Part shown: in pieces, positions 4,898-32,030 of the stretch
Numbering within the stretch: the stretch's first letter is position 1
How the letters are laid out: each line of letters starts with the position of its first letter
Assembly: GCA_002256025.1 (NCBI GenBank)
Contig: NKIB01015284.1
Coordinates: forward strand, 1 to 36,754
Source: Asterionella formosa
Lineage: Eukaryota
Length of the DNA stretch: 36,754 bases
Direction: 5' to 3'
Notes under the pieces: model-generated
Told to the model about the DNA's origin: nothing
The model's database searches: none
What the model saw: the letters and a program-made list of their open reading frames with translations, nothing else
Program-made: the position numbers and the translations under genes

Positions 4898-4946
4898 GGT
4901 ACCAGGTACAAGGTACCAGGTACACCAGGCACGAGGGTCTACCGGT
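4898..4946. promoter_or_regulatory. (GGTACCW)n heptamer cluster upstream of the gene at 5837
   Basis: GGTACCA GGTACAA GGTACCA GGTACAC CAGGCAC. The repeat is seen directly; a regulatory role is inference. Confidence 0.5.
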
Positions 4947-5405
4947 ATCGTGAGAGACCACACATGTACCACAGCCAAGTCCTTGTCTTTTTGCTTGGTG
5001 ACACTGGTTCCTACGGGTATGTAGTTGACAATCGCCCATGCACACATGATACTTATGTAATTTGCATCGAAGTGCATAAACACAGATTCCATCAGGACAA
5101 CTGCTCCATGTGTAAAATGCCACGAGAAAACAACTACCAGAAAAAAACGGCCGTTCGGCCGGTTTGATCAAACTTCACTCCAAGTTCAACATAGAAGTAC
5201 TAGATATACCGTGTTAAATTGTAAACTGGGAATGAACGGAAGTTCAGACTTGGGCCCAAAAACCGGCCTTCTGTCCGAACATTTCTACGAAAATCAGCGT
5301 AAGTGTCCGGTTGATGTCTGATGATGACGTTCTTTGTTCATCCTTTTTGAGCGCCTGTCCTGCGTCACATTGTTCATTCAGCAAAATGCATTACCGCAAC
5401 TTGGA

Positions 5406-5476
5406 GGTACCAGGTACCTGGTACCACTGTACATGAATTATTTTCAAGGAGAGGGAGGTACCAGGTACCAGGCACA
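5406..5476. promoter_or_regulatory. (GGTACCW)n heptamer cluster upstream of the gene at 5837
   Basis: GGTACCA GGTACCT GGTACCA (5406-5426) and GGTACCA GGTACCA GGCAC (from 5457). Confidence 0.55.
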
Positions 5477-5836
5477 ATGCATGAGCGAAGCAATTTGTTG
5501 AACCCGCACCGGTACGTGGCTTATATTCTGGTGGATACATACTGTGAATGTACATAAATAGCAACGTAGACAATGACACATTGTTGACGTCAAGGAATAC
5601 GTCGACAGAGCAAAATGGCTGTTGTTCTCGGATACGCACACCAGTAGTAAGCAGCAGCCCCTTCTTGCACTACGTGGGTACCAGTATATGCAGTTCATCA
5701 TATTGCTCATTGTTGCTCTTTGTTTTGAGAAACGGCGAACAAATACATATTAGCTACAGTTCCTATAAGAACGATCTACCGGACGTCAATTCCATCACAA
5801 CCTCTATTTGCGTCATAAGAAGTGATAACAAGAACA

Positions 5837-7987
5837 ATGGAAACCAAGCGAAAGGCCTTGAATGTGCCGCTGCAATGGCATCCCAAGCTTGTGACAGCTC
5901 TTCTGTTGTCCTTCTTTTGTTCTGGCGTCGTATCCTTCGTGAATCCTACTCGCACTGGCGCTGCCCGGTCTCGTTCGACTTTCATCACCAATCACGTGAG
6001 ATCACCAATGCTCATTATGTCCATTGCCCCGGCGAAGAATCGCTTTTGGTCGGTTTTCAAGCGCAACAAGCATGACGACACCAAGCAAGGAAATTCTCGT
6101 GCCTCTGTCAAGCTCCAAGTCACAGTGACAAAGGAGACCCCCGCTCAGTCCATTCAGGAGACGAAGAAGCCGCGCACTAGCAAATTGAACGCCTTCTTCG
6201 CCCGCATCAATCCTGTTAAGATCGTTCAAGGTGGTCGAGCCAAGACGCAAGGATCCCCTGCGATTGGGTTGAGGAAGCAGCATCAAGAACCAACGCTAGT
6301 CGTAATACCAGCACCACTTCAACAAGATCTCTCCCCATTTGAATCATTCAAAGAAAGCTTATATGATTCAGTGGACAGCCTTTCGAATCTCATGACGAGC
6401 AGCGCTGCGGAGACATCGCCGACTGAAGGCGCGACCGTTTCCAAGCCCTTGCTCAAGCCATCAATTGTGGCTTTGATCGAAGTCAAGCAAGCCAAGGAAG
6501 CCATGCCTGACCCAGCATCGACTAATCCTTTGAAACGAGCTCTTGCCGAACTTGCTATCGGTAATAGAAATCCGCAGCGTATCGTTGAACCAAACAAGGT
6601 GGGGCCGTTTTCATCGTTCAAGAATGGATTTTACGGTTTAGTGGATTTCTTGGAGACATTCGTCCAAGTCGTCACTACTATTCCTGAACGAGTGATGGAG
6701 GCAGCCGATGCAGCCAAAGTTGCAGCGATGGCTTCTTATAAATGGGCTGCTTCTGTTCCTCTTGTCCTTGAAGAATCAGTCGCCTTTGTAACCTCCCTTC
6801 CAATGGAAGTGGAAAAGAAAGTCAAGGAAACTCAGCAGTCTTTTGATGATAAAGTACAGGTCACTCAACAGTCTATCGACGCTACTGTACAGGCCACTCA
6901 ACTCTTTATTGAGGAATTTCAGGCCATTCCTGAGACAGTTCAGAAATCTGTGACTGCTGTTCAAAACTCGATGGATGGAACGCGCGCAAGGGTTGCGTCG
7001 ATGTCTGATGTCTTCGAAGAAGCAGCTGCCTTTGTGACCTCATTTCCAACGAAAGTCGAAACGTCAGTTCAAGAAACTCAGCAGTCTATTGAAGATGCAG
7101 TTCAGGCCACTCAACTCTTCGTTGAGGAAGTTCAGGCCATTCCCGAAACAGTTCAAAATTCTGTGATCGTGGCTCAAAACTCGATTGATCAAACTCTAAC
7201 GAAGGTTGCATCTGTTCCCGTTGTGCTTGAAGAATCGGTTGCTTTTGTATCCGCTCTTCCAATGGAAGCCGAAAAGATAGTCAAGGAAACTCAGCAGTCG
7301 ATTGTTGATACAGTTCAAGCCACTCAGCAGTCTGTCGAAGCCACTGTTCAGGCCACGCAACTCTTTGTGGAGGAAGTTCAAGCCATTCCTGAGACACTTC
7401 AAAAGTCGGTGACTGCAGTTCAAAACTCACTTGATGAAACCCTTACAACTATCAAGGTACTGGTAGGAACAGAAGAAAGGAAACCAGTACCTCCAAAGGT
7501 GCCTCCACCTTTTCCTGAACCGGTTCCTGTCTCAGACATGGTATGGAATATGGCTGCAGCTACCGCCAGTGTCTCCGCCAAAGCAGCCTTGTCAGTGGGG
7601 ACTGGTGCTATCCAACTGGCTTGGAAAGGCACTCAATTGGCCTTTTCCTCGTTATCCAAGGGCAAAGCCGTCAGCAGTGTAGCCGTTCCCAACCCTCCAC
7701 TCAAGATGGAAATTAAGGATGTAAGCGTGGATTTGGACAAGGAGATTTCAGCAGCCTTGGAAGTTGCTGACGCTGCCCTGATGGGTACGACGAAGGCCTT
7801 GGATTTAGAAGTGATGGACGCTTTGCGCCTTGCCGAAGTTGCTTTGCAAAAAGCTAATGACGGACCCTCTTATTCCAACTCAGGGATTGACGCTTCTCTT
7901 CGTCTTGCCAAGGAAGCTGCACTTCGAGCTACCATTGACGTGGCTAGTATGGAAAAAACTCTTAAGAACTCGACATTAACTCCATGA
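5837..7987 (+). CDS. Hypothetical protein (~716 aa), probable bipartite plastid targeting, apolipoprotein/perilipin-like amphipathic tandem repeats
   Basis: Long uninterrupted ORF with first ATG at 5837. Hydrophobic LVTALLLSFFCSGVVS followed by F-VNP and a Ser/Thr/Arg-rich stretch (ASAF-like). Three internal repeats of 82/71/82 aa. Confidence 0.85.
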   Translation: METKRKALNVPLQWHPKLVTALLLSFFCSGVVSFVNPTRTGAARSRSTFITNHVRSPMLIMSIAPAKNRFWSVFKRNKHDDTKQGNSRASVKLQVTVTKETPAQSIQETKKPRTSKLNAFFARINPVKIVQGGRAKTQGSPAIGLRKQHQEPTLVVIPAPLQQDLSPFESFKESLYDSVDSLSNLMTSSAAETSPTEGATVSKPLLKPSIVALIEVKQAKEAMPDPASTNPLKRALAELAIGNRNPQRIVEPNKVGPFSSFKNGFYGLVDFLETFVQVVTTIPERVMEAADAAKVAAMASYKWAASVPLVLEESVAFVTSLPMEVEKKVKETQQSFDDKVQVTQQSIDATVQATQLFIEEFQAIPETVQKSVTAVQNSMDGTRARVASMSDVFEEAAAFVTSFPTKVETSVQETQQSIEDAVQATQLFVEEVQAIPETVQNSVIVAQNSIDQTLTKVASVPVVLEESVAFVSALPMEAEKIVKETQQSIVDTVQATQQSVEATVQATQLFVEEVQAIPETLQKSVTAVQNSLDETLTTIKVLVGTEERKPVPPKVPPPFPEPVPVSDMVWNMAAATASVSAKAALSVGTGAIQLAWKGTQLAFSSLSKGKAVSSVAVPNPPLKMEIKDVSVDLDKEISAALEVADAALMGTTKALDLEVMDALRLAEVALQKANDGPSYSNSGIDASLRLAKEAALRATIDVASMEKTLKNSTLTP
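6749..7453 (+). repeat. Three coding tandem repeats (246/213/246 nt)
   Basis: Units begin ASVPLVLEES (6749), ASMSDVFEEA (6995) and ASVPVVLEES (7208). All share VQATQLFxEExQAIPET. Confidence 0.9.
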
Positions 7988-8399
7988 TGAGGTTCCCTGT
8001 GCCCTTTCCTTTTTCTCGAACTCGTAAATTTCTTCATTACATAATTCAAAGGACTATTTAGCATATTTGATATCCATTTTACACAACTTGTTGATTGAAA
8101 TTCCCTTCAGATTTATGTAGGGTGGTACAGATAACCAATATCTTCATATCCATATTATGGTTGATCTTCAGATATAACATTTCGAATCTTTTCGATGAAC
8201 CTTGAAAATCAGTCCAATTTTTTGTATCGCAAACTCTTACCAGTTTTGTGCATCTAGTTCCAGATTCAACATAAGGATAAACTATTCTTTTTTGTATATT
8301 CAGCATATATTCTAAAATCAATTTTGTTGCCCACGACACTGCTTTTATTCCAGGTGGTCACAATTGACACAATTTTTTGCAGCAGGCATCCCTGCAAGT

Positions 8400-9420: not shown

Positions 9421-9552
9421 TGCAAGGGCATAGAAATAACAAATGCTGGTTTAGGAACCACAAAAGAAAGAAAAATTGGCAAAACCTTTGAATTACCGGT
9501 ATTCTAGTAAAAGTCAGTAACCAAGTTAAAAACTGGTGTTGTTATGGAAGTA

Positions 9553-9582
9553 GGTACCATGGTACCATAAGGTACAAAGGAC
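9553..9582. repeat. GGTACC-rich cluster
   Basis: ggtaccatggtaccataaggtacaaaggacc. Confidence 0.55.
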
Positions 9583-9663
9583 CTGCAAGTTGTGGTCATT
9601 TGCTTTACCAAAACTGACAATGCGGCACCACACAACAGACACTCAAATTCAACTCCTACTGAA

Positions 9664-11579
9664 GGCAATACACGCCCGAGGTGGTCTCTTGCCTGCAAGC
9701 ACACATGTATACGAAAAGGCAAGTAGCCGCCAAGAAGGGTAATGTTGAGGCAATTCACAAACTAGCTATCGTCGCGTCATTCGCTTACCTACTGCCCACA
9801 AATGAAGCATAAATATCAATTTTAGCCTACTATTGCCCATCAGACGCCAATTGCCCCTCGGTTTTCCAGCCCTGGGATTGCCGAAATCCGCAAGGGGTCT
9901 ACTTAGGGAAACCATTTTATATAATCCACAGATTTTAATAATTTATATCTAAAATTCACCTCGTTTTTGTTCTTCTCCTGAAAAGTGGACTCCGGCAACT
10001 CACCTTTCACCATGCCGATTGTCATCCATCATGACCGGTTTGAAGCGAAATCAGTTTAGTGATGGTGCCAGTAGCGATTTGTTGTCGAACGGATGCGGTT
10101 GGTTGTTGGATTGCTTGTCTTCTCGAGGGATTCATGTAGTCGCATCATCCAAATTTCATCAGACAAACGATGATAGCACTACATCTAATGTTGGTGGCAA
10201 GTTTATGCTCAGGTTATGCATGTGATGATGCTGCCTAACCTGTAATGTTAGTCATCTAGCCTACATACTACGTAGTACGTGGTACTGAAAAACCATGCAT
10301 AGTTTAAGCTAAACTTTAACGCTTACTTTGAACATGGCCGTTATAATATTATCTCTGTAGACTCGGTATTATTTTTACGAGACCAGAATATTAAATTATA
10401 TTATTCACATATTGATTGATTTTACATATGTATGCCCGATTTCGTCCTCACAATTATAAATCTCACTCTATCCTGCCTGCCATTCTTGCTCAATTCTAGC
10501 TTGCAACAGGAACTTTCGACTTTCTTTTGAGCCCATCGTCTGCTGCGTGTTATGTTTGTTAGAGCGGACCGGTGAGTACAACAGTCAAACACTGAATGTG
10601 ATCATAGATACGATTGTCGAATTTCCGATTTGATTGCTTCCATGGTCCATTTTGATCGCTTCCATCGTTGTTTGTCGTTCCACCTTGTCGTTTTGTTTCG
10701 ATAGTATGTATCTATATAAGAACCAGTGGTTTTCCCGATGACTACTCTTTGACGACGTATTGTTGTTGATCGTATTTGTTGATTTGTATATTTGTTTACC
10801 ATGATGTCAATATTGCCGCCAAGCAATGCTTTTCTTGTTCTAACGCACTTTGCTACATTTCTACTACGAGTTCGTATCAGAAGCTACATGAATAATCAGC
10901 TAGAGAGAGTCAATAGTGCTGGAGCAGCATGGCGATCACGCTTGCTCAGAATGGAATGATCAGGGTTGCTTGTTTGGTGCTGGGCGGAGGAATGACTGTG
11001 GCGGAAATACTGCTATGGTGTCAGGCTACTACAGCGATGCGCATGGTTGCAGCAACCAGACCATTAACGCTACATCACTATGCAGGTCTAAATTGGGTTC
11101 AGCTTTTTTCTTCTTCTTTTGGTCTTCGATTGTGTGGTGATGGAAAGTCAATGTTGCCAGTGTAAGTACACTACAATGATATTCACAATGCATGCTACAC
11201 AATGATTCACAATGCATACTATGTTTCCATTGAAACTCCTATTTTTTAAACTTCATTTCTGACCCAAAACAATCTTTTCTATTTCTTATTTGATGCAACT
11301 TATTACATTGCATTTCATACTTTGGTTGCTCCAAACATCATGTTCAATTTTCATTGATGTTGCATGTTACAATCATTCTCGTGTGTTTTACGCCTGTTGT
11401 ACCATCTCTATGTATTTTACCGTTTTTCTGGTTGTCATGCTAAAATCGGCAATTTTGATCCCGAAAATTCGATGTACCCCATATTGCCCCTGAAACAAAT
11501 TACCTATTAAATTACTTAGAGCCTAAAACTTACTTAGAAGTACCCGAATGACAAGACGATTGCTGGAGCGGGAATTGCT
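9664..11579. mobile_element. ~1.9 kb dispersed repeat, copy 1; probable non-autonomous TIR DNA transposon
   Basis: Colinear and highly similar to 17441-19447. Imperfect TIR: GGCAATACACGCCCGAG at the left end vs the reverse complement of the right end (GGCAATTCCCGCTCCAG in copy 2). Many subterminal GGCAAT/ATTGCC motifs. No intact ORF. Confidence 0.8.
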
Positions 11580-11733
11580 GTAAAATATATGTACATTGAT
11601 TGAAATGAGAAATAGCTGTCAGTTTCAAGCAGGACCAATTAATTATATTAAATCAAACAACGTTTGTGCACTATGAATATTGTTCCAGTACCGTACTTTA
11701 CATGGAGCCAGAGTAAATTTTACAATAAAACAA

Positions 11734-11842
11734 GGATACCGGTACTGTGGTACCAGGTAGTCGTAGGAAAACCACATTCCGGTACATCGTCATCACCTGG
11801 TACCTGGTACTCCCACCATGTAACAGGTACTACCTGGTAACC
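11734..11842. promoter_or_regulatory. (GGTACCW)n cluster directly upstream of IF2
   Basis: ggataccggtactgtggtaccaggtag ... cacctggtacctggtac ... caggtactacctggtaacc, ending ~60 bp before the ATG at 11904. Confidence 0.55.
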
Positions 11843-11903
11843 GTTGTATGCACAAAGAAGCAACTTACGACAACATCACATTGCTCACTTCACACCACAC
11901 ACG

Positions 11904-14900
11904 ATGCTGCGATACGCCATCTGCGGAGCTCGACTAGGTCACTCGGGTATTCAACGAAGATCCGCAGAGATCCCTTTCCAAACCTTTTTGCGAGGGAAAA
12001 GTTCCTTGGAAGATCCTGCATTCGACGACAACGGTTTTGACGAGACCCAACGGAACAGGTCTAGGCGTTTTTGGGACGATAGGGCCCAAGATCGGCGGAC
12101 CATAGCGCCTTCCAATGGCCGGATACTCCAAGATCGCGCAGAATTTAAGAAGAGGCCCCCTGCCGGAAATTTCATACCAGGTAAGCCAGCTTCTCTGAGT
12201 CATCTCGATCAACTGCAACATGGCCACAATCGATCACAGGAAGGTGAGGGTCGTTGGAATCAAAACGACCTTCCAAATCCTAAATGGCAACAAAACGCGG
12301 GAAGACAGTTACCAATGAGTGTATGGCGGAACAATGCTGTAAATCAAAATGATTCACCCAGGCCTGCAATTCGACAAGATACTGGAAATGATAGGCAATT
12401 ACCTGGACCTGGATGGCAGCAACATGCTGGAAATCAGAATGAATTACCAATTCCAGCATGGCGTCGAAATTCCGGATACCAGAATGAAATACCAATGTCA
12501 GCATGGCGACAAAATGCCGAAAATCAGAATGATATACCAAGGCCTGGACAGTGGCAAAACTCTGGAAATCAGAATGAAATGCCAAGGCCCGGACGGCAAC
12601 AAAATATGGGCTATGAACAACGATCGTTTCGTTCGCCGACATCAACCGCTTCGTCGACTAATCATCAGACTCTGAAATATTCAGTTCACCAAGCACGAGA
12701 TAATGAGGCATTACGATCCCGAAAATTTATTGATGTCAGACAGAACCGGCAAAACGAGCAAAAACAATCCGATTGTGATTCATTGACGAATATGTCGATG
12801 ACAGTGATGAGTTCTGGCACACCACCTTCAACTGAGGATGCTTCTTGGAGGTTGAAACTTAACCAACTACGCCAAACAGCGCGTGATGCCGGAACTGAGC
12901 GTTCATTGTCCCACAATGCTTCGAAACTCGTTCCACGACCAGTGCCAGTAACGAGCCAAGTAATAAGCGCAGAATCAGAACAGCTAAATTCCTCTTGGAA
13001 GCACCAGCTGGAAACGATCAGAGGGCGTCAAGGGATCCAAGGAATCACGACTATTGATGCATTAATTTCTTCCTTTCAGCACGGAAGCACGGCGTCACCA
13101 ATGATATCTAATTCGTCAAAAGAAACTTCCTCACACAAAAGTATGACTGACATATCAAGCCTGCGTGACGCCTTCATCAAGGGCCAAGAGGCTGAAAAAA
13201 TTCGTAAGCGACAGCAAGCAGAAGAATTTCGAGCAGCTGGTGCCATTGTCGATCAAGAGGAAGGAAGTTCGACTCAAACACCAACACTGGCTTGGCGAGC
13301 GCCTAATGGCGCACGAGAGTTTCGCGAAAAGCTTATCGCAGAGAAAGAAGCAGAGGAACAGGCTCAACTCCAAGTCGCAACGAGGGAACCTGATATAGGG
13401 GCCGTAAAATTACAACAGCGGGTAATGGACTCAATCCACAACAAGAAGGGCGAGGAAATGAAACGTCGGCGCCAGCAAGGGTTGACCAATGGAAAGGAGG
13501 CATATGAAGTCATCCTTCCGCCTAATGACTTAAGTGTCCACGACCTCTCAAAAAAACTGCGAGTTAGTCAAGATATGATCATGAGTATTCTACGGCAGCT
13601 CGGTGAAAATCCCAAAGATTGGAACAGCATGGTAGACATCGACACAATGGAGCTTTTAGCACTTGAGCTTGGACTAAATTCCGTCAGATCAAGAAGACGG
13701 GTTGTGAAGTCCATATCAGAAGAAGACCGAGAAACTCTCTTACGAAGACGTGCTTGCGGCGAAAGTGTCGACGAAGGGCTGTTGGCCAAATATGAGGCAC
13801 TTCCACAAAGACCACCTGTTGTCTGCCTCATGGGCCACGTCGACCACGGCAAAACAACTCTAATGGATGCGCTTCGACGCCGAAGCAATTCCAGTGAATT
13901 ACGACAAACGATGAAGGGTAAAACGAAAAAAGCGAAGACTGCAAACAAGAACGCAAACTCAGATGATGTTGCCGGTACTGAAGCGGGAGGAATCACTCAG
14001 GCAATCAGTGCCTTTCAAGTGACTCTAGCGGATCAAGGCACTGCGGTTACCTTCCTTGATACACCGGGACACGCAGCCTTTCGTGCTATGCGTGAATCAG
14101 GGTCGCATGCTGCTGATGTAATTGTCCTCGTCATAGCTGCAGACGACGGTGTTTCGCGACAAACGGTTGAAATTATTGAATTCTTTAAATCCATAGTAAC
14201 AGGAACAGGGGGAGGAGGCATTTCTCTTGTCATAGCGATGACGAAGATTGACAAGCCAGGTGTCAATGTAGCGGAGAGCCAAAGACGAATCGAGAATCAA
14301 CTTTTGGAGCATGGGATTCTCACCGAAACTTTTGGTGGCCGAGGCGATTTCGGGCCGCCTGCTCAGTTGCTTCCCGTCTCCGGTATAACTGGAGAAGGAC
14401 TAGATCAGTTGATTGAAGGGCTTGCCCTACAGAGTGAAATAATGGATCTCAGAGCTGATCCTGACGCTCATGCTGAAGGTATCATCATGGACGCTCGCAC
14501 GGACAAATCACTTGGTGTTGTGGCTGATTGCATCATTCGATGGGGGTCACTGCAACGAGGTGATATTGTGGTTAGTGGTACACATATTGGCAAGATTAAG
14601 GCTCTCAAAGACCCTACCAATACAGTCATCAAGATGGGCGGCCCATCACAACCTGTTCGCATAATTGGATTCAAAACAACTCCGAAGGCTGGCGATCCTT
14701 TAGTTGTGGTGGAATCGGAGGAGAAGGCTCAGATGCTCGTTGCACGACGTGAGGCATTACAGATCATAGACCCTGACCATGTAGAAGAGCGTCCTGATGT
14801 TGATACTAAAGGGGCGATTGAGGTGCAGATCTCTGGTGTCAGCGCGCAGCGACCACACATGCTTGCTCGCCTTTTTGGCAAACATGGCATCGATGTTCAT

Positions 14901-15596
14901 ACTGAGACAACACAGGTTCGTATTCCTGTGGTCTTGAAAGCAGACGCCGATGGGACGCTGGCTGCCTTGAAAGATTCGATCATTGCAATCGGAGTAGAGT
15001 CCAAGCTTGATGTTGTAATTGATCCTATTGTCGCAGGGATCGGGCAAGTCACCCATGCAGATGTTATCGCAGCCAGTGCAGCTGGTGCCGCTATTTTTTC
15101 GTTTAACCTGAAGAACAACGATACCAAGATTATGAGCCTCATCGAAGAAAAAAAGGTAAAATTCAAAAATGACAATGTCATCTATTCCTTGATCGATGAT
15201 GCCAAAGAAATATTTAGTGATTTTCTTCCAGAGAAAACAGTATATCATATTCACGGCAAAGCTACCGTTCAGGCCGTCTTCGAAATTAACAACAAATCAG
15301 ACGCCGAAAGAATTGCTGGCTTGATGGTGAATGAGGGCACCTTGTATACCAAAATGACGAAGCATCCAAGTGGAGTAGGGACAATCGAATGCTACTACAG
15401 AGTACTTCGCGCCGGAGAAGTAATTTCGGCAAAGGGGGACACTGTGAAATGCAGCAGCCTTCGTCGAGTGAAGGAAGTCGTTGACAGCATTCGGTTTGGT
15501 CAAGAATGTGGGTTGGGATTGACTGGTTTCGACGAATTCGACGTCGGTGATACGATTGAATGCTACTCAGTCGAAATGAAGCGAGATACCATCTAG
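11904..15596 (+). CDS. infB: Translation initiation factor IF-2, bacterial type, probably mitochondrial (1230 aa)
   Basis: RPPVVCLMGHVDHGKTTLMDAL (G1), EAGGITQ, FLDTPGHAAFRAMR (G3), TKID (G4), C-terminal GQECGL..FDVGDTIECY. Arg-rich N-terminus MLRYAICGARL resembles a mitochondrial presequence. Confidence 0.95.
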   Translation: MLRYAICGARLGHSGIQRRSAEIPFQTFLRGKSSLEDPAFDDNGFDETQRNRSRRFWDDRAQDRRTIAPSNGRILQDRAEFKKRPPAGNFIPGKPASLSHLDQLQHGHNRSQEGEGRWNQNDLPNPKWQQNAGRQLPMSVWRNNAVNQNDSPRPAIRQDTGNDRQLPGPGWQQHAGNQNELPIPAWRRNSGYQNEIPMSAWRQNAENQNDIPRPGQWQNSGNQNEMPRPGRQQNMGYEQRSFRSPTSTASSTNHQTLKYSVHQARDNEALRSRKFIDVRQNRQNEQKQSDCDSLTNMSMTVMSSGTPPSTEDASWRLKLNQLRQTARDAGTERSLSHNASKLVPRPVPVTSQVISAESEQLNSSWKHQLETIRGRQGIQGITTIDALISSFQHGSTASPMISNSSKETSSHKSMTDISSLRDAFIKGQEAEKIRKRQQAEEFRAAGAIVDQEEGSSTQTPTLAWRAPNGAREFREKLIAEKEAEEQAQLQVATREPDIGAVKLQQRVMDSIHNKKGEEMKRRRQQGLTNGKEAYEVILPPNDLSVHDLSKKLRVSQDMIMSILRQLGENPKDWNSMVDIDTMELLALELGLNSVRSRRRVVKSISEEDRETLLRRRACGESVDEGLLAKYEALPQRPPVVCLMGHVDHGKTTLMDALRRRSNSSELRQTMKGKTKKAKTANKNANSDDVAGTEAGGITQAISAFQVTLADQGTAVTFLDTPGHAAFRAMRESGSHAADVIVLVIAADDGVSRQTVEIIEFFKSIVTGTGGGGISLVIAMTKIDKPGVNVAESQRRIENQLLEHGILTETFGGRGDFGPPAQLLPVSGITGEGLDQLIEGLALQSEIMDLRADPDAHAEGIIMDARTDKSLGVVADCIIRWGSLQRGDIVVSGTHIGKIKALKDPTNTVIKMGGPSQPVRIIGFKTTPKAGDPLVVVESEEKAQMLVARREALQIIDPDHVEERPDVDTKGAIEVQISGVSAQRPHMLARLFGKHGIDVHTETTQVRIPVVLKADADGTLAALKDSIIAIGVESKLDVVIDPIVAGIGQVTHADVIAASAAGAAIFSFNLKNNDTKIMSLIEEKKVKFKNDNVIYSLIDDAKEIFSDFLPEKTVYHIHGKATVQAVFEINNKSDAERIAGLMVNEGTLYTKMTKHPSGVGTIECYYRVLRAGEVISAKGDTVKCSSLRRVKEVVDSIRFGQECGLGLTGFDEFDVGDTIECYSVEMKRDTI
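12258..12611 (+). repeat. About eight coding 45-nt repeats (NQNExPxPxWxQNxG) in the IF2 N-extension
   Basis: NQNELPIPAWRRNSG / YQNEIPMSAWRQNAE / NQNDIPRPGQWQNSG / NQNEMPRPGRQQNMG and similar units. Confidence 0.9.
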
Positions 15597-15686: not shown

Positions 15687-16775
15687 TCACCACTCCGATT
15701 CCGGTAGCGTCAAAATCTCAACTCCTGTCTCAGTAATGAGTACAGTGTGTTCAAACTGAGCCGAAAGGCTACCATCTTCCGTTACGACAGTCCAGTTATC
15801 CGTCCATTCTCGACATGCGCTATTCCCTTCGGTCAACATAGGTTCAATCGTAAATATCATGCCAGGCACCAGCTCACAATGGTCCTTGTTGCGAAAATGC
15901 TTCACGAAAGGTGCCATGTGAAACTCATGGGCAATACCATGGCCTCTATACTTTTGCACAGAATCGTAACCATAGGCATCACATACGGAATGAATAGCTG
16001 CACCTATATCCGATAGATCAGCTCCGGGGTGACACGCACTGACACCAGCATAAAGGGACTCACGCGTTGCATGCACTAGTCGCCGGGCAGCCTGGAAGTA
16101 TGCCTCCACAGCGTCTCCTTCATGGTTCATCTTGTAGGGGACACCCCTCCAATCACTGCCTCCGCCTTCGTCGATCGCTTGTTCATCTCCAACAATCACC
16201 GTAGCACAGTTATCACCATGTACACCATTCAAAAAGCAACTAACGTCAAAGGCCACAATATCTCCCTCCTCCAAAGGGCGTGAGTCCGGAATACCATGAC
16301 ATATTACTTCGTTGATCGAAGAACAAACCGATTTCGGAAAGTCAGCATAGTTTAGAGGACTTGGGTAAGCGTTGTGGGCAATAATGGCTTCATGAACCTC
16401 CTCATCAATCTCATCGGTCGTCACTCCGGGCTTGGCCATTGAACACGCAAGATCCAAGATTTTTCGCGCTAACCGAGCAGCTTGTCGCATCTTCTCCGCA
16501 GATTTCGCATCGTGAATCAATATTCTATTAGGAGCTAGCGACATTGGAACTATGCCCCTGTCCGCATATGAAGGGCGAGAGATGTGCGGAGGTACGGTGC
16601 GGCGTGGGCTTTTCGGGAAGGGAACAACGGGCGGGGGACGATACCTGTTTTCTGGAGTAACGGCTGCGTGGGCTGCTCCGACGCTCCTCTTCTTGGAATA
16701 CGACGCCTTGCGGGTGACATGACTGCCAGATAACAAGCGCCGCAGCGGTGGGGATGTCATGGTCGACAACATCAT
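15687..16775 (-). CDS. map: Methionine aminopeptidase type I, probably organellar (MAP1D-like)
   Basis: FPKSVCSSINEVICHGIPD; metal ligands in FDVS, GDNC, GHGI, TIEPM and QFEHT; basic/Ser-rich N-terminal presequence. Confidence 0.95.
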   Translation of the reverse strand: MMLSTMTSPPLRRLLSGSHVTRKASYSKKRSVGAAHAAVTPENRYRPPPVVPFPKSPRRTVPPHISRPSYADRGIVPMSLAPNRILIHDAKSAEKMRQAARLARKILDLACSMAKPGVTTDEIDEEVHEAIIAHNAYPSPLNYADFPKSVCSSINEVICHGIPDSRPLEEGDIVAFDVSCFLNGVHGDNCATVIVGDEQAIDEGGGSDWRGVPYKMNHEGDAVEAYFQAARRLVHATRESLYAGVSACHPGADLSDIGAAIHSVCDAYGYDSVQKYRGHGIAHEFHMAPFVKHFRNKDHCELVPGMIFTIEPMLTEGNSACREWTDNWTVVTEDGSLSAQFEHTVLITETGVEILTLPESEW

Positions 16776-16905: not shown

Positions 16906-17140
16906 GTACCAGGGACCAGGTACCTACCAATATTTACCGGGTGGCTCTACGATAGTATTTCATAGTGCGTGTTGAACTGACTACCAGTACCTAGTACTAC
17001 CTGGTACTTGATAGCAGGTAACCGGGTACCTGTTACCAGGTAATGGTACTGGTGCTGGTACCAGGTACCAGTTCCCTGGTACTACCGCCATGTTACAACA
17101 GTATTTTGATACCTGGTACCTGGTACCGTAACTGGTAGTA
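16906..17140. promoter_or_regulatory. Large (GGTACCW)n-type cluster upstream of MetAP
   Basis: gtaccagggaccaggtacctacc; ctacctggtac; ctggtaccaggtaccag; tacctggtacctggtacc. Confidence 0.6.
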
Positions 17141-17241: not shown

Positions 17242-17440
17242 CTGAGTGGGTGGGTTTACATCTTTGGAGCGCATTGCAATTACCGTAATTGGCTACCAGT
17301 AGATATACCGTACTGTGTCGAGTCTACTGTGCTGTCTATGACGTTATATCAATGATATTATGTAAAGCTACGATATGTATGTATGGCTCATAAATACTAA
17401 TAATTATTTGAGCAAAAAAGCCAGCGTCAGGGATGCTGAA

Positions 17441-21630: not shown

Positions 21631-23354
21631 TTACAGCAAAAGAGTGGTTGGGTTTTCAATATGTGACTTGAAGGCACTCAACCATTGTGCTCCCACAGCC
21701 CCATCCACAACTCGATGATCACAACTCAACGTGGCAGTCATCATGACAGCCTCTTTGTAAAGCTGGTTTGTATCTTCCGTATTGGGCACAATTCTGTTCT
21801 CCATTGTACCTAAGGCCAATGCACATGCCTGCGGCTCTCTAATGATGGGAGCACAAGACTTGACCCCATACATACCCAAGTTCATAACAGTAAATGTTCC
21901 CATGGCATGAAAGTTATCAGGCAATTCAACACCTCCATCCAACGCGTTGACAGCAGTGGTCAAATCCGCCGACAAGGCCTTGACACCGCGGCGTCCGATG
22001 TCCCGAATGACTGGTGTGTACAAGTCATCTCCATTTCCAACAACGACATTGATATCGACTGAATCATATACACGAACAACACTGTCCATCCAACTTGCAT
22101 TGGCCGAAGGGACAGCCTTCATGGCTGCTGCTGCCGCCTTGAGCACGAGTTCATATACTCCCAATTGCTGTCCTTCTTTGCCGATACTCTTATTCAAAGT
22201 AGATCGTAATTCTAACAATGCATCCATCGTTAAATCGACAGTCAAGTAGTAATGAGGGACATTCCGCTTTGATTGAGCCAAACGAGCTGCGGTTTCTTGT
22301 GCCGAAGCTGAAATGGGATAGTCGATAAACCCGATACCAGCAACTGGAGAAGCTGAAGCAATGACTGTCTGAGCAGGAGATGCAGCAGTTGCGATGGTAG
22401 CGGTAGAAGGAGCAGCCACAGCAGCCGGAGAATCAATAGCTTGTTCCGCGGGAATAAATTCTTGAACGTCGGCGGCCAGAATACGTCCACCTGGCCCTGT
22501 CCCGACAATGGCTGAAATGTCCTTGCCAAGTTGCATTGCGAGCTTGTGTGCCTTCGGAGATGCGATAACACGACCCTCATAGGAAACGACTGGGGCAGGA
22601 GCAGTATTAGTAGGTGCTGCAGGAGTGGCAGCTGCGACTGGAACAGGAGTTGCAGCAATGGCAGTTGGCGCCGGCGCGGCAACAACAGCGCCTGGAGTCC
22701 AGTCAGCAAAAGCACCGACATTTGCAGCATCTTCTACTGAGATCATAATAGGAGTTCCACACAGAATCTCAGCAGCGCCAGCATCCATCAAAATCTTGGC
22801 AACCACTCCTTCGTCTTGTGCTTCAAAATCCATGGTTGCCTTGTCGGTTTCGATACTACAGATGACATCACCAGCACCAAACGAATCTCCAACTTTCACG
22901 GCCCAACTCGCGATCGTTCCTGCTTCCATAGTCTAAACAAGTAAACAAGATGAAAAAGGTTAGCAATTGACAGGAGAATGGATCCTGAAACGGAAGATCC
23001 GATGAAGTGAACCTCGGCAGTACAAATCGAATGTCGACAGGATTTCTGCATTTAACTCCCCACGGCACTCTCCAAGAATCAAGTTCGGCAAAAATTAACT
23101 TCGAAGAGTTCAGCTGTTAACAACGCCGACGCTGAACTAATCCATCATTTGACGAAGCATTCAAATCGTCGGAATGTGCTCGCAGTTCCGATTGAGATCC
23201 GATCACAACTCACTGGCGAGAGGGAAGGCATTCCGTGAACATCATGAGGAGGATAAGATGCTAAGAATCGTCGTAGTGGAGACAAGCCTGACAACCTGCT
23301 TGTTCGGTCGACGAGTCGTCGTGACAAGCCAAGGGCAAACAGTCGAGTCGCCAT
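21631..23354 (-). CDS. DLAT: Pyruvate dehydrogenase E2 (dihydrolipoamide acetyltransferase), mitochondrial; exons 23354-23214 and 22932-21631
   Basis: Presequence MATRLFALGLSRR. Splicing restores MPSLSP|TMEAG. Lipoyl motif IETDKAT, subunit-binding ASPKAHKLA..GTGPGGRI, catalytic DHRVVDGA. Confidence 0.95.
22933..23213 (-). other. Spliceosomal intron (281 bp) of the E2 gene
   Basis: gtgagt donor, gctaac branch site, pyrimidine tract and tttag acceptor on the minus strand. Confidence 0.92.
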
Positions 23355-23427: not shown

Positions 23428-23750
23428 TACACCCGGGTACTACATAGCATAATAACCTACTTAGTATATACCGGTAGAGTAACAACGTAAAAACTGGGGG
23501 GCATACCCCATGCCCAGCAATGCTACCAGGTACCTGGTACCTGGTACCGGTACCCTGGTAACAGTAGTTAGAACCAATACCCGCATTTAAATAACGGAAC
23601 ATGTTTGGGCTCACACGTACGTCCCAGGTACCACTGTTGTTTACCGGTAGTACCGGTAAGTGTCGAACCGATATCCTAATGTAGGCTCTCTGCTACCGGT
23701 ACTCTATTATTTTTGGACCAAGGACCTACCGGTATTCTACGACAGGTACA
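23428..23750. promoter_or_regulatory. (GGTACCW)n cluster upstream of the E2 gene
   Basis: taccaggtacctggtacctggtaccggtaccctggtaac (23524 onward) plus several taccggta sites to 23750. Confidence 0.6.
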
Positions 23751-25812: not shown

Positions 25813-26213
25813 NNNNNNNNNNNNNNNNNNNNNNNNNNNNNNNNNNNNNNNNNNNNNNNNNNNNNNNNNNNNNNNNNNNNNNNNNNNNNNNNNNNNNNNN
25901 NNNNNNNNNNNNNNNNNNNNNNNNNNNNNNNNNNNNNNNNNNNNNNNNNNNNNNNNNNNNNNNNNNNNNNNNNNNNNNNNNNNNNNNNNNNNNNNNNNNN
26001 NNNNNNNNNNNNNNNNNNNNNNNNNNNNNNNNNNNNNNNNNNNNNNNNNNNNNNNNNNNNNNNNNNNNNNNNNNNNNNNNNNNNNNNNNNNNNNNNNNNN
26101 NNNNNNNNNNNNNNNNNNNNNNNNNNNNNNNNNNNNNNNNNNNNNNNNNNNNNNNNNNNNNNNNNNNNNNNNNNNNNNNNNNNNNNNNNNNNNNNNNNNN
26201 NNNNNNNNNNNNN
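25813..26213. other. Assembly gap (401 N)
   Basis: Run of n. Confidence 1.
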
Positions 26214-29596: not shown

Positions 29597-30364
29597 GGTC
29601 GACTGTTTGTTGCATTTTGTTACTCATGTTATGAAGTCTCCTCCTTCGTCCGTTTCGACGCGCTGACGGCCGTTTGAAATTTGATTTTGCTTCCTGCTGT
29701 CAGTCGTAGACTGCTACCGGTACAAATGATACCTGTACTTATTTAGTTGTTACATCACACATGCATATTCGATATATACTCCGTACTATGGAGCAACCGT
29801 TATCTCGAGGTCAAGAGTCGAAAAAAAATCACAAGACCCACTGCCTGCTTTCATTGTTGAGGTTGGCTGATGATGTGGCTGCATCAATGCTCTCCAAAGG
29901 ATGAGAAAGCAGCCGCAGCGGTGCTATGCATGAACTCCGAGTAAACTTCAAAAAAATGTGTACTAATGGTACCACATGAACGAGAAGTTGAGGTAGATTA
30001 ATCTGAAAGGAGTTTGACAAATAGTACATAAATATTGATAAACCGGTAAATATACTCAGCAACATAGGTGCTAGGCAGTGGATTGAAGGATCACAGCGAA
30101 TTTAGGAGACTGTTGATAGATAGATTTGACTCTATTGATATTTCCAAATAAAGTGGCTGAGCTTATAGAAGAATTAACTTTAGCAAGCAAAACCAACAAT
30201 ATTAGATCATAAATGAGTAGAGATTAACTCAGGTTCACAACCAGACTCAAAGATTGATTCAAATGTGAGCAAAAATTGATTCATGTTCATGACTAGACTC
30301 AAAGGATCATGAATGAGCTGATTTTGGAGATGCAAACAAGATTCATTTGACTTATCTGTATCAA

Positions 30365-31690
30365 CTCTCTCCCTTAGTAGCAGAGCACACAATCACCAAC
30401 CACATGACTGTTCGCATAAAGCTGTAAATTTGTCATCCACAAGACCCTTTGTAAAGATATCAGTCAGGTTGGCTATAGTATCCACCTTGACAATTTAAAG
30501 AGCACCAGAAAGGACATATTCACAAAAAGTGATATACTAGTACAGCAATGTACTTAGTATGAGGATTCATCGTTGGTATCTTTGCTTGGGAGGCAGAGGC
30601 ATGCACTTTTATCTTCATCATCATAGACCTTTGAAAAAGATCGATCAGCTGAACCTTTACCAATATGTAGGGCAGTAGATGCTTCTTGAATGATATGATG
30701 GAGAGGAATTAGGTCCTGATAACTGGCAGAAAGAGCTTGGTATTCTGCTTCCATTTTAGATAGTAGTGCAGTGGTAGTTTGTAATTTGGACACCCAGAGG
30801 AGGGGGCATCCAGCAAGGGTGATGACATAGCCCGTTCAAGAGCGATATTACACTGGAATAGTAGAGTCTTCTGAACCAAAGAGCCCAACAAAATCACTGT
30901 CACAGTAGCATTCAATGTCAATGGCATCAGGAGTAGGAGTAAAAACAATTCCTCGGTCAAAAGTGCCATTCAGATAACGGCAAATTTTTCTTCATTGCTT
31001 ACTATTTCATGAGTACTAGCATAAGGACAACGAAAAAAGCGAGCGAGCACACTGATTCACAGCAAAAGCAATGTCAGGACAAGAATTAGCTAGAGCATAG
31101 TAACATCCCCATCACAAACCGGTAGTTCCATGTTTCAGTTGCAGGCAAAACACCCTTCTCAGTTCCTAGAGTCTCTTTATTGGCTGGAGTAGGGCTAGCC
31201 CAACAGTCTTCGAGGCCAGCAGTACTAGCATCATGGAGGGCATGCTTAATAAGACCCTTTTGTGTGAGTTTAAGTGAACCATTTTCCCTTGATTTGTTGA
31301 TTTGGATGCCCAGAAAAGCAGCAAGATCTCCCTCTCGAGGAGTCAATTCTGGGTCAATAACATCAATCATAGCATCAGTCATTGTCTCATCATGAACAAT
31401 AAGAATTGAATCATCCACACATACCAGGTAGAAGACCATGTCAGCATGAACGAAAAGGCATGGGTCTAACAGTGACTGGGTGAACCCTGTTGCTCAAGAC
31501 ATTCCTTCAATTTGAAGTTCAATTTGAAGAACCAAGTCTTAGGTGCCTGTTTTGTTCCATACAATGATTTATTTTACACAATAATTCATTTTACTGAAGT
31601 TCCATATCTCTTCCCCTGGGATCATCAAAATCTTTGGGCATTTCAACATACACCTCTTCATCAATATCTGCTTGACTGAAGACATTGTTC
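30365..31690 (-). mobile_element. Degenerate Ty1/copia RT-RNase H relic with polypurine tract
   Basis: Minus strand: QADIDEEVYVEMP, KSLYGTKQAPKTWF, VCVDD, SKLQT...MEAEYQALS, LTDIFTKGL, ending CGW* (stop 30393-30395), then AAGGGAGAGAG (30375-30365). Many stops and frameshifts. Confidence 0.9.
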
Positions 31691-31996
31691 TGGTGTCAAT
31701 TCCTTCATCCACTGATGCCTATGATTGGTTATAGTGAAAAGTCAATGAAAGAAAGGGGGGGGGGGGGGGCCATGGCGCAAATTCCAAGGGGCACAAGTTT
31801 TTAGAAAATTATATAAAGGATTCGATTCGGAATAATTTTTAAATCGGGGCTCTTAGAGCCGGAGAATTATCAGAACATACGCTTCATGAGAGGCAGGCAT
31901 GCATCATTGACCTAAAGTTTGGTTGCAACCATCAAAGATGATGAACGCAGAGGGAGTATACTTTTAACGACGCACTATGTACTATGGCAACATGTA

Positions 31997-32030
31997 GTAC
32001 CTGGTACCAGGGACCAGTACCAGGTACCAG
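31997..32030. promoter_or_regulatory. (GGTACCW)n cluster upstream of the MntP-like gene
   Basis: gtacctggtaccagggaccagtaccaggtaccag, ~50 bp before the ATG at 32079. Confidence 0.6.

What the first reader, a model, noticed from the sequence alone, without database searches (positions are those of the whole stretch)
4898..32030. Self-complementary (GGTACCW)n heptamer arrays mark gene 5' ends on both strands
Seen: tandem or clustered GGTACCA/GGTACCT units lie upstream of the genes starting at 5837 (4898-4946, 5406-5476), 11904 (11734-11842), 16775 (16906-17140), 23354 (23428-23750) and 32079 (31997-32030). Weaker variants lie upstream of 29596 (~29715), 19609 (~19527) and 36336 (~36605-36700). 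Tandem arrays are not evident in CDSs, at convergent 3' ends or in TE relics. The unit interlocks two palindromes (GGTACC and CCWGG), so the array reads the same on both strands. The flanks differ at each site, which argues against a simple MITE. Inference: a lineage-specific, orientation-independent promoter or chromatin element, for example a multimeric TF site, a boundary shielding genes from silenced TE blocks, a DNA-modification target, or a repeat seeded at open chromatin. I know of no description of it, but could not check the literature.
Basis: partly seen in the sequence, partly recalled or inferred. Interest (0 to 1): 0.85.

Follow-up and report, generated by a model that had tools for sequence, protein, structure and literature searches.

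The report
Palindromic GGTACC repeats upstream of diatom genes
Short clusters of one self-complementary DNA word (GGTACC-A/T, with the core TACC-GGTA) sit just upstream of most genes in this freshwater diatom and recur in other diatom DNA; they are probably docking sites for an unknown gene regulator, though a self-expanding junk repeat is not excluded.

Summary
GGTACCW occurs 50 times against 4.3±2.6 in shuffles, and this family supplies the most over-represented 7- and 8-mers of the window. Of 61 family hits, 46 lie within 500 bp upstream of eight start codons. That is 11.7/kb, against 0.14/kb in genes. RNA contigs stop 58-140 bp (87-300 bp at gene 5837) short of the arrays at four genes.

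It is not a transposon family. The flanks share no similarity.

It is sequence-specific. Only GGTACC among the 64 palindromic hexamers forms period-7 pairs, and the centre of TACC-N-GGTA is always A or T.

The same arrays occur in other diatom contigs from metagenomes. There they differ by whole-array insertions or deletions between relatives whose array-free flank is 96% identical. Only 4 of 30 non-ascertained promoter-containing intervals there carry a cluster.

The 8-mer TACCGGTA is already published as a promoter motif in oomycetes (PMC3597505, PMC10031896). The heptamer arrays were not found in print.

Best reading (0.45): clustered sites for a dimeric DNA-binding protein, amplified by slippage. 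Main rival (0.3): a functionless hairpin-prone repeat that favours open promoter DNA.

The parts
4897..4946 (.). Distal cluster about 900 bp upstream of ATG 5837: period-7 array (3.9 copies) plus one TACCGGTA
5405..5472 (.). Two period-7 arrays (3.1 and 2.4 copies), 31 bp apart, about 370-430 bp upstream of ATG 5837
   Evidence: spanned by DNA contig 5294-8421 of run X2
5677..5683 (.). Single GGTACCA unit 154 bp upstream of ATG 5837 and 87 bp upstream of the 5'-most RNA contig (5770)
9494..9575 (.). It lies 84 bp before a 1.9-kb repeat insertion. Without that insertion it would sit about 490 bp upstream of ATG 11904
11737..11842 (.). Cluster 62-167 bp upstream of ATG 11904 (IF-2-like GTPase gene)
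   Evidence: RNA contigs begin at 11923-11950
16906..17136 (.). Cluster 131-360 bp upstream of the minus-strand methionine aminopeptidase gene (ATG 16775)
   Evidence: RNA contigs end at 16766 or earlier
23436..23750 (.). Cluster upstream of the minus-strand 2-oxoacid dehydrogenase E2 gene (ATG 23354): a 5.3-copy array at 23524-23560 and four dispersed TACCGGTA at 23642, 23651, 23694 and 23727
   Evidence: the spliced RNA contig ends at 23378
29715..29974 (.). Weak: one TACCGGTAC (29715) and one GGTACCA (29968) upstream of the minus-strand gene ending at 29596
31997..32030 (.). Period-7 array (5 imperfect copies) 50-80 bp upstream of ATG 32079
5837..7987 (+). Gene (716 aa, no Pfam family) downstream of the first three clusters
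11904..15596 (+). IF-2-type translation initiation GTPase gene
15687..16775 (-). Methionine aminopeptidase (M24) gene
21631..23354 (-). 2-oxoacid dehydrogenase E2 gene; intron 22933-23213 shown by RNA contigs
32079..32618 (+). Small gene with a weak Mntp (Mn efflux) match
9659..11578 (+). High-copy repeat (TE) copy 1, inserted between two parts of the IF-2 upstream region; it carries no arrays
17436..19446 (+). High-copy repeat (TE) copy 2, 83-85% identical to copy 1, inserted 300 bp beyond the MetAP arrays

Best explanation
The clusters are homotypic arrays of binding sites for a sequence-specific DNA-binding protein that binds as a dimer. Its site is the palindrome TACC-GGTA, with zero or one (A/T) base between the half-sites. 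This tolerance resembles bZIP proteins, which accept both the AP-1 and the CRE spacing. The sites lie in the upstream regions of functionally unrelated genes, so the factor would be a general one that opens or delimits promoters rather than the regulator of one pathway. Because the site is a palindrome it works in either orientation. Head-to-tail heptamers arise because the self-complementary unit slips easily during replication, so site number changes quickly between relatives and could tune promoter strength.

Shown: the motif family, its specificity, its position upstream of the transcribed parts in this window, its unrelated flanks, its presence in other diatom contigs, and its rapid turnover.

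Inferred: that a protein binds it, the kind of protein, and any effect on chromatin or transcription.
For: 1. Position. Forty-six of 61 family hits lie in the 500 bp upstream of eight ATGs, which is 10.7% of the window: 11.7/kb against 0.14/kb in genes, 0.41/kb downstream and 0.76/kb in other non-genic DNA. Six of 8 clusters lie there (binomial P=3e-5, or 6e-4 against non-genic space; 5 of 7 independent groups, P=0.003).
2. An unbiased word count gives the same family as the top word enriched upstream at k=4, 5 and 6. GGTAC occurs 67 times upstream against 34 times in the rest of non-genic DNA (P=5e-27).
3. The 5'-most RNA contigs are at 5770, 11923, 16766 and 23378. The nearest family elements are at 5683, 11842, 16906 and 23436, that is 58-140 bp further upstream; at gene 5837 the nearest element is a single unit at 87 bp and the nearest array (to 5470) lies 300 bp upstream. 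Poly(A) RNA run X11 has depth 0.9-6 in the array bins against 77-3367 in the gene bins.
4. Specificity. Among 64 palindromic hexamers only GGTACC forms period-7 pairs (7 against 0). TACCGGTA is the commonest of the 256 palindromic 8-mers. The centre of TACC-N-GGTA is A 12, T 10, C 0, G 0 in the window, and A 309, T 275, C 10, G 6 in low-GC loci.
5. There are dispersed, non-tandem copies. Four TACCGGTA lie at irregular spacings (9, 43 and 33 bp) in one promoter. Slippage alone does not produce that pattern.
6. The identical 8-mer is an over-represented promoter motif in another stramenopile group. It is M94, a 'high-confidence' motif in Phytophthora infestans (PMC3597505, passages read). ATACCGGTAT lies upstream of 206 genes in Plasmopara halstedii and is equated there with GTACCGGTA of Seidl et al. 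(PMC10031896, passage).
7. The flanks are unrelated. After masking the motif, all-against-all blastn of 123 loci plus the window gives 15 pairs, mostly duplicate or overlapping records. About 20 foreign DNA contigs at each of two array borders have a consensus agreement of only 0.40-0.45.
Against: No protein is identified, and none could be sought because no genome is held.

The arrays turn over very fast. Two related contigs are 96% identical in an array-free block, yet they differ by array-bearing indels of 26, 25, 20 and 17 nt and hold 35 against 20 family hits. That is how an unconstrained microsatellite would behave.

Distances to the ATG are broad, from 50 to about 900 bp here and from 70 to about 1500 bp in other contigs. 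This is not a fixed-position core element.

In non-ascertained intervals of other diatom contigs, only 4 of 30 promoter-containing intervals carry a cluster, against 2 of 22 that face only 3' ends. By clusters this is 7 against 2, P=0.26.

Arrays can sit close to 3' ends: L047 at 76 bp and L064 at 77 bp from a stop codon.

Some RNA contigs from elsewhere contain arrays; one in run X8 has depth 490.

Gene models are ORF-based, and RNA contigs cannot show true 5' ends.
Confidence: 0.45

Rival explanations
1. The arrays are a functionless (neutral or selfish) microsatellite-like repeat. The self-complementary heptamer forms hairpins, slips and expands. It accumulates where it is tolerated and where DNA is exposed, namely nucleosome-free promoter DNA. 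It is removed from coding sequence because a 7-bp unit shifts the reading frame.
For: Arrays are gained and lost as whole blocks between relatives whose array-free flank is 96% identical. Spacing shows a pure 7/14/21 series with no helical phasing. Single strands fold into hairpins of -7.4 to -12.1 kcal/mol, z -1.9 to -4.0. Clusters spread over up to 1 kb of intergenic DNA in other diatom contigs, where they sit beside (GTA)n/(TAC)n low-complexity words: 147 of 218 such words lie within 100 bp of a family hit, against 26% of bases. Only 4 of 30 unbiased promoter-containing intervals carry a cluster. The genes served have unrelated functions.
Against: Only one of the 64 possible palindromic hexamer units has expanded, which hairpin physics alone does not explain. 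The family is scarce in the other 15.8 kb of non-genic DNA in the window (0.76/kb against 11.7/kb upstream). Dispersed single TACCGGTA palindromes occur at irregular spacing. The same 8-mer is enriched in oomycete promoters, where no arrays are reported (PMC3597505). No indel in any array separates the window from the roughly 99%-identical population in run X2 (table 4).
Confidence: 0.3
2. The units are excision footprints of a TA-targeting cut-and-paste transposon (Tc1/mariner type) whose ends begin CC(A)...(T)GG. Each footprint would read TA + CC(W)GG + TA. This parallels the Sleeping Beauty footprint TAC(A/T)GTA and the Tc1 footprint TACATGTA (both recalled, not from a call). Repeated insertion and excision at the regenerated TA, or later slippage, would build periods of 6, 7 and 8.
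For: Every unit is flanked by TA. The centre is A or T only, as a repaired mismatch would give. Periods of 6, 7 and 8 all occur with the same outer bases. Variants such as TACCAGTA (8 copies, 11.5-fold over expectation) look like trimmed ends. The partner oomycete motif M93, TACATGTA, equals the recalled Tc1 footprint (PMC3597505).
Against: No element with such ends was found in the 36.7-kb window or in about 206 kb of low-GC loci. The window's own high-copy repeat has different termini. Sequences next to arrays elsewhere in the genome show no common continuation (agreement 0.40-0.45). The predicted 3+3 form TACCATGGTA is rare (1 in the window; 3 in the loci, against 33 AG/CT forms). One 26-nt array insertion has no TA at the empty site.
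Confidence: 0.08
3. The words are targets of a DNA-modification or restriction-like system (CCWGG or GGTACC methylation) that marks promoters, rather than protein docking sites for transcription.
For: The unit interlocks the two palindromes GGTACC and CCWGG, and the strict A/T centre matches CCWGG. There is no direct evidence.
Against: Nothing in the calls bears on modification. The 8-mer TACCGGTA lacks CCWGG and GGTACC, yet it belongs to the same clusters.
Confidence: 0.05

Closest known systems
Oomycete promoter palindromes M94 (TACCGGTA) and M93 (TACATGTA) of Phytophthora infestans (Roy, Kagda & Judelson 2013, PMC3597505); ATACCGGTAT (streme-5) of Plasmopara halstedii (PMC10031896)
   Same: The 8-mer is identical, it is over-represented within about 500 nt of start codons, and the organisms are stramenopiles. 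The binding protein is unknown there too (passages read).
   Different: Those papers report a dispersed, stage-associated motif, not head-to-tail heptamers. The 9-mer form with an A/T centre is not mentioned in the passages read.
Homotypic promoter arrays read by general factors: Drosophila DRE (TATCGATA)/DREF-BEAF-32 and GAGA-factor (GA)n tracts (recalled, not from a call)
   Same: A short palindromic or repetitive word is clustered near the starts of many unrelated genes. It acts in either orientation and is thought to keep promoters open or insulated.
   Different: The sequence and the lineage differ. No protein, chromatin or reporter data exist here.
Unstable tandem repeats in yeast promoters (Vinces et al. 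2009, recalled, not from a call)
   Same: Short repeats in nucleosome-free promoter DNA change in copy number between close relatives.
   Different: Yeast repeats have many different, mostly AT-rich units. Here one GC-balanced palindromic unit dominates.
bZIP recognition of AP-1 (7-bp) and CRE (8-bp) palindromes (recalled); diverse palindromic 8-mers bound by P. infestans bZIPs (PMC11267843, passage)
   Same: Two inverted half-sites are accepted with spacings that differ by one base pair.
   Different: No bZIP with a GGTA half-site is reported in the text or in the two supplementary files searched. The motif logos are in figures that I could not see.
GTAC-core sites of SBP-domain factors (plant SPLs, Chlamydomonas CRR1 copper-response elements; recalled)
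   Same: There is a GTAC core, with several copies per promoter.
   Different: To my recollection, SBP proteins are not known in diatoms. The genes here have no common theme. Not testable without the genome.
Tc1/mariner excision footprints (recalled)
   Same: A TA-flanked palindrome with an A/T centre.
   Different: No matching element was found, and tandem iteration is not a known property of footprints.
Bacterial GGTACC hairpin repeats (REP/REPIN-like; earlier finding e1-1038044)
   Same: The same hexamer occurs in self-complementary repeats. The 34 high-GC loci of my scan may be of this kind.
   Different: Those are 37-66-bp elements with conserved arms in bacteria. The diatom arrays have no conserved arms or flanks.

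Membership tests
Transposable element / MITE family | Copies share internal or flanking sequence, terminal repeats and target-site duplications | tested here: not met
   Motif-masked all-against-all blastn of 123 loci plus the window gave 15 pairs, mostly duplicate records. About 20 foreign contigs at each of two array borders have consensus agreement of only 0.40-0.45. No long inverted repeats bracket the arrays.
Tandem repeat (micro/minisatellite) | Head-to-tail copies of one unit | tested here: met
   There are eight period-7 arrays of 2.3-5.3 copies. However, 17 of 22 perfect runs in the window are single units, so only part of the family is tandem.
Tandem repeat (micro/minisatellite) | Copy-number variation between close relatives | tested here: met
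   L049 and L063 differ by array-bearing indels of 26, 25, 20 and 17 nt, beside a block that is 96% identical. No array indel separates the window from run X2.
Transcription-factor binding-site cluster | Motif over-represented in upstream regions relative to other non-coding DNA | tested here: met
   for the window. The trend is in the same direction but not significant in non-ascertained intervals of other diatom contigs.
Transcription-factor binding-site cluster | Sites retained at orthologous promoters | tested here: inconclusive
   Only one related pair was available. Some arrays are shared and several are not.
Transcription-factor binding-site cluster | A protein binds the site | not testable with these tools
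   No genome is held and no binding data exist.
Core promoter element (TATA, Inr and the like) | Fixed distance and orientation relative to the transcription start | tested here: not met
   The proximal edge lies 50-154 bp from the ATG and clusters extend to about 900 bp. The element is palindromic.
Transposon excision footprint | An element with matching termini exists in the genome | tested here: not met
   None was found in the window or in about 206 kb of low-GC loci. The whole genome was not searchable.
Transposon excision footprint | Length variants are sums of end fragments (2+2, 3+2, 3+3) | tested here: inconclusive
   The 8-mer and the 9-mer (A/T centre) fit. The 10-mer is mostly AG/CT (33) rather than the predicted AT (3).
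SBP-box / copper-response element | GTAC core | tested here: met
   GTAC occurs 61 times upstream against 62 in the rest of non-genic DNA, where 21.7 are expected upstream.
SBP-box / copper-response element | An SBP-domain protein is encoded, and the target genes form a metal regulon | not testable with these tools
   No genome is held. The genes served are IF-2, MetAP, an E2 acyltransferase, a protein of unknown family and an Mntp-like protein.
Known RNA gene | Match to an Rfam family or a tRNA | tested here: not met
   There are 0 Rfam matches at gathering score and 0 tRNAs in the window.

The most novel reading that the evidence does not exclude
Some diatoms mark a large share of their promoters with an evolvable module. 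Short self-complementary heptamer arrays are generated by hairpin slippage. They are read by a dimeric factor inherited from the stramenopile ancestor, since the same TACCGGTA palindrome is enriched in oomycete promoters. The factor keeps the upstream region nucleosome-free and insulated from neighbouring transposons, and copy-number changes give rapid, heritable tuning of expression. This would be the first general promoter-defining cis-element described for diatoms.
Probability: 0.25. Interest if true: 0.8.

Novelty: new variant of a known kind. Interest (0 to 1): 0.6.

Why it matters
To my knowledge, diatom promoters are poorly defined and no general upstream element is known for them (recalled). 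A short, easily recognised word would be useful if it does the following:
- It flags upstream regions.
- It differs in copy number between close relatives.
- It shares its core with a published oomycete promoter motif.

Such a word would give a direct handle for finding the factor by pull-down or DAP-seq, for improving gene-start annotation in diatom assemblies and MAGs, and for building tunable synthetic promoters.

If it proves to be only a hairpin-prone repeat, it would still show that one specific palindromic unit can colonise open promoter DNA. It would also be a practical cause of assembly breaks: the DNA contigs of run X2 break at the array at 23531-23550.

Tried and rejected
1. Whole-genome statistics were impossible. 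No genome is held for the window, and the metagenome records behind the loci are not searchable.

2. TE/MITE reading: rejected.

3. The window's high-copy repeat (9659-11578 and 17436-19446) as the source of the arrays: rejected. Its ends are unrelated to the motif and it holds no arrays.

4. Footprint model: kept only as a minor rival.

5. Known RNA genes: none.

6. A search with a chaperonin fragment restricted to longer proteins was uninformative about taxonomy, because the protein is too conserved and I chose the wrong length class. A phosphomannomutase search settled that L065 is from a diatom.

7. I counted one-mismatch variants of GGTACC inside clusters. They fall 24:12:3 at the outer, middle and inner positions in the window, and 502:162:36 in the loci. 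This looks like a protected GTAC core, but it is partly built in by anchoring on TACC(W)GGTA hits, so I do not use it as evidence.

8. Variants between run X2 and the window in the array regions (16954, 17131, 23434, 23623, 23641, among others) are too few to test constraint. One of them (23623 C>A) completes a TACCAGGTA palindrome in the other strain.

9. Five look-ups of earlier findings returned nothing on diatom nuclear arrays.

10. Literature. Eight searches found no description of the arrays. The PBM paper PMC11267843 has no text or supplement hit for the motif, but its logos are in figures that I could not see. Seidl 2012 (PMC3520976) has no text hit, and its motif table was not seen. 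The palindromic motif in the Thalassiosira oceanica paper is ACACGTGC, which is unrelated.

11. Parts of the stretch without RNA cover are not used as evidence of silence, beyond the contrast stated for run X11.
Full report
**What the window is.** The window is nuclear DNA of a diatom.
- The long ORFs encode an IF-2-type GTPase, a methionine aminopeptidase, a fasciclin protein, a 2-oxoacid dehydrogenase E2 and others.
- The aminopeptidase's named relatives are all diatoms at 56-68% identity, including Fragilariopsis, Seminavis, Nitzschia, Phaeodactylum, Mayamaea and Skeletonema. Unnamed environmental proteins reach 81-82%.
- Public runs labelled lake water, freshwater or algae metagenome hold 25-80% of the sampled words of a 9.9-kb stretch.
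- No whole genome is held.

**The observation.**
- GGTACCW occurs 50 times on both strands, against 4.29±2.59 (maximum 12) in 100 dinucleotide-preserving shuffles.
- Apart from G-runs, the most over-represented 7-mers and 8-mers of the window all belong to one family: CTGGTAC, GGTACCA, CCTGGTAC, TACCAGGT and TACCGGTA.
It also reports a period-8 (GGTACCAT)x2 at 9553 and a period-6 (GGTACT)x3.8 at 17039.
- The arrays are short. There are 22 perfect runs: 17 single units, 3 doubles and 2 triples.
- The arrays sit in looser clusters with two palindromes, TACCWGGTA (22 copies) and TACCGGTA (10 copies).
- DNA contigs of an independent run span three of the arrays, so they are not assembly artefacts.

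**Specificity.**
- Of the 64 palindromic hexamers, only GGTACC forms pairs at period 7 (7 against 0 for each of the others).
- TACCGGTA is the commonest of the 256 palindromic 8-mers (10 copies; the next is TGGTACCA with 7).
- TACC-N-GGTA is the commonest 9-mer palindrome (22 copies; the next has 5).
- The central base is A 12, T 10, C 0, G 0 in the window.
- The smallest enriched word is the half-site GGTA(C).

**Position in the window.**
- The eight ATGs used are 5837+, 11904+, 16775-, 19609+, 23354-, 29596-, 32079+ and 36336-. The 500 bp upstream of them make up 10.7% of the window and hold 46 of the 61 family hits.
- That is 11.7/kb, against 0.14/kb in genes, 0.41/kb in the 500 bp downstream and 0.76/kb in the remaining 15.8 kb.
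- Six of 8 clusters lie there (P=3e-5, or 6e-4 against non-genic space). Counting one group per upstream region gives 5 of 7, P=0.003.
- The seventh cluster (9494-9575) lies 84 bp before a 1.9-kb high-copy repeat inserted at 9659-11578. Without that insertion it would sit about 490 bp upstream of ATG 11904.
- The eighth cluster (4897-4946) is about 900 bp upstream of ATG 5837.
- Five of the eight genes have a strong cluster.
- A word count with no prior motif puts GGTA, GGTAC (67 upstream against 34 elsewhere in non-genic DNA, P=5e-27), and CCGGTA and GGTACC at the top for k=4, 5 and 6.

**Relation to transcripts.** I laid contigs of three RNA runs and one DNA run on 4700-24600.
- The 5'-most RNA contig positions are 5770 (gene 5837), 11923 (IF-2), 16766 (MetAP) and 23378 (E2, with a 281-nt intron confirmed).
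- The nearest family elements lie 58-140 bp further upstream; for gene 5837 the nearest is a single unit at 87 bp, and its nearest array lies 300 bp upstream.
- In the poly(A) run X11 the array bins have depth 0.9-6, against 77-3367 in the gene bins. The transposon bins, which reach 6,000-40,000 in DNA, have depth 0-2.4 in this RNA run (0 in five of seven bins), so little DNA contaminates that run.
- Contigs cannot show true 5' ends, so this is a bound and not a mapped start.
- A few RNA contigs from elsewhere do contain arrays. One in run X8 has depth 490.

**Not a transposon.**
- In the DNA run, about 20 contigs from other places end in each of two arrays and continue with unrelated sequence (consensus agreement 0.40-0.45).
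- I scanned metagenome contigs for three exact units. Flanking DNA was fetched for 80 loci and the rest have about 300 bp a side.
- After masking the motif, all-against-all blastn of the loci and the window gave 15 pairs. These were mostly the same record twice or small unrelated repeats.
- No long inverted repeat brackets the arrays.

**Other organisms.** The loci fall into two groups.
- Thirty-four have GC above 0.55 and one array each. They are probably bacterial, and I did not study them.
- Seventy-four non-duplicate loci have GC 0.38-0.50, and many carry several clusters.
- The ORFs of the longer low-GC loci are eukaryotic (mitochondrial carrier, Noc2, MCM, CCT, plastid fibrillin, DUF6824 four times). 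Two loci are bacterial (L021, L066), one looks animal (L067) and one is a copia element (L035).
- All named relatives of a phosphomannomutase on L065 are diatoms, at 47-55% identity.
- These loci share no sequence with the window apart from one 85-bp hit. They carry 218 (GTA)3/(TAC)3-type words in 206 kb, against 0 in the window. Most of them therefore come from one or more other diatoms.

**Position in those contigs.**
- Over 33 loci of at least 2.5 kb plus the window, 1 of 94 clusters lies inside an ORF of 150 aa or more, and that one is near the ORF's start. I had dropped two duplicate loci, two bacterial loci and the animal-like locus.
- Intervals with a cluster: convergent 1 of 14, tandem 7 of 23, divergent 6 of 11. 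Convergent against the other two gives Fisher P=0.04.
- The single convergent case is L020, a compact marine eukaryote.
- Convergent intervals are shorter, and each locus was chosen for having an array. I therefore repeated the count on intervals that lack the three-unit pattern.
- In those, clusters occur in 0 of 5 divergent, 1 of 16 tandem, 3 of 9 one-sided 5' intervals, 2 of 13 one-sided 3' intervals and 0 of 9 convergent intervals.
- Hits per kb were 0.94, 1.70, 5.48, 0.64 and 0 respectively, with 0.38 in ORFs.
- By clusters this is 7 in 26.7 kb against 2 in 16.7 kb (P=0.26). The direction agrees with the window, but the sample does not prove it. It also shows that only a minority of upstream regions carry arrays in those organisms.

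**Turnover.**
- Two loci from different samples (L049, L063) align over about 900 columns.
- A 300-bp array-free block is 96% identical.
- The array-rich part differs by indels of 26, 25, 20 and 17 nt that consist of units.
- There are 35 against 20 family hits.
- One 26-nt array has no seed and no TA at the empty site.
- By contrast, the window and the roughly 99%-identical population in run X2 show no indel in any array.

**Structure.** Single strands of four arrays fold into hairpins of -7.4 to -12.1 kcal/mol (z -1.9 to -4.0). This follows from self-complementarity. Distances between half-sites show 7, 14 and 21 bp and no 10-11-bp phasing.

**Literature.**
- No paper in the library prints two consecutive units (0 papers).
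- Searches combining diatom, promoter, motif, palindrome and repeat terms gave nothing relevant.
- The 8-mer TACCGGTA is published for oomycetes. It is motif M94 and is listed among the 'high-confidence' promoter motifs of Phytophthora infestans. Listed beside it is M93, TACATGTA, which occurs 4150 times in promoters (PMC3597505, passages).
- ATACCGGTAT lies upstream of 206 genes in Plasmopara halstedii and is equated there with GTACCGGTA of Seidl et al. 2012 (PMC10031896, passage).
- The protein-binding-microarray study of P. infestans factors does not mention the motif in its text or in the two supplementary files held. Its logos are in figures that I could not see. It does report bZIPs that bind varied palindromic 8-mers.

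**Interpretation.** The facts to explain are these:
- One specific palindromic word is involved.
- It appears in two spacings (0 or one A/T base).
- Copies are both tandem and dispersed.
- In this window they are concentrated 50-500 bp upstream of unrelated genes and outside the transcripts.
- The flanks are unrelated.
- The family is present in more than one diatom.
- Turnover is fast.
- The core matches an oomycete promoter motif.

A dimeric DNA-binding protein with clustered sites explains the specificity, the spacing rule, the dispersed copies, the position and the oomycete parallel. Slippage of a self-complementary unit explains the tandem copies and the turnover. I put this at 0.45.

A functionless hairpin-prone repeat that settles in open promoter DNA explains the turnover, the broad distances and the patchy occupancy. 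It does not explain why only one of the 64 units expanded, nor the oomycete parallel. I put it at 0.3. The two readings are not exclusive.

An excision-footprint origin is elegant for the TA flanks and the A/T centre, but it lacks an element and fails one prediction (0.08). A modification target is untested (0.05).

**Verdict.** This is a real and specific promoter-proximal repeat family in diatoms. I could not find it described as arrays. Its core is already known as a promoter motif in oomycetes. Its function is unproven.

Noticed in passing
window 9659-11578 and 17436-19446: Two same-strand copies (83-85% identical) of a repeat of about 1.9-2.0 kb. Its summed depth in DNA run X2 is 6,000-40,000, against about 100 for single-copy DNA. 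No ORF of 80 aa or more in it matches Pfam. Both copies are inserted 160-310 bp from array clusters, so this element seems to land in upstream regions. Its type was not determined.
   Followed up: partly
window 33365-33857 (minus strand): Fragments of a MYST-type histone acetyltransferase (weak MOZ_SAS match, E=4.7e-5, below the cut-off) are split over two frames. This is either a pseudogene or a gene with introns that I did not model. It lies in what I counted as a convergent intergenic region.
   Followed up: partly
window 6830-7446: Inside the 716-aa gene of unknown family there is a 213-bp tandem repeat (2.2 copies, 76% matches) with a nested 33-bp period, which indicates a repetitive protein.
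   Followed up: no
window 8734-8879: A perfect 72-bp tandem duplication (2.0 copies, 100% identical) in the intergenic region downstream of gene 5837. It looks recent.
   Followed up: no
window 25813-26213: A run of 401 N (masked or an assembly gap). ORFs listed across it are artefacts.
   Followed up: no
low-GC loci, e.g. L014:123-343, L040:3410-3516, L051:2725-3060: In the other diatom contigs the arrays sit among (GTA)n/(TAC)n and CTAGTACTAG-type low-complexity words. Of 218 such words, 147 lie within 100 bp of a family hit, although only 26% of bases do. The window has none. This suggests a wider GTAC/TAC-rich upstream composition in that organism.
   Followed up: partly
L001-L123, the 34 loci with GC above 0.55 (e.g. 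L003, L007, L026): The same three-unit pattern occurs as isolated arrays in high-GC, probably bacterial, contigs. These may be the REP-like GGTACC hairpin repeats noted in earlier findings of this scan.
   Followed up: no
L020:796-846: In a compact marine eukaryote contig (MCM, Pho88, Na/Ca exchanger genes) an array lies between two convergent genes, 150 and 27 bp from the stop codons. The same word can therefore sit at 3' ends in other lineages.
   Followed up: no
window 23623 (run X2 variant C>A): In the related population the change completes a TACCAGGTA palindrome next to the existing GGTACC. This is an example of a site gained by point mutation rather than by slippage.
   Followed up: no
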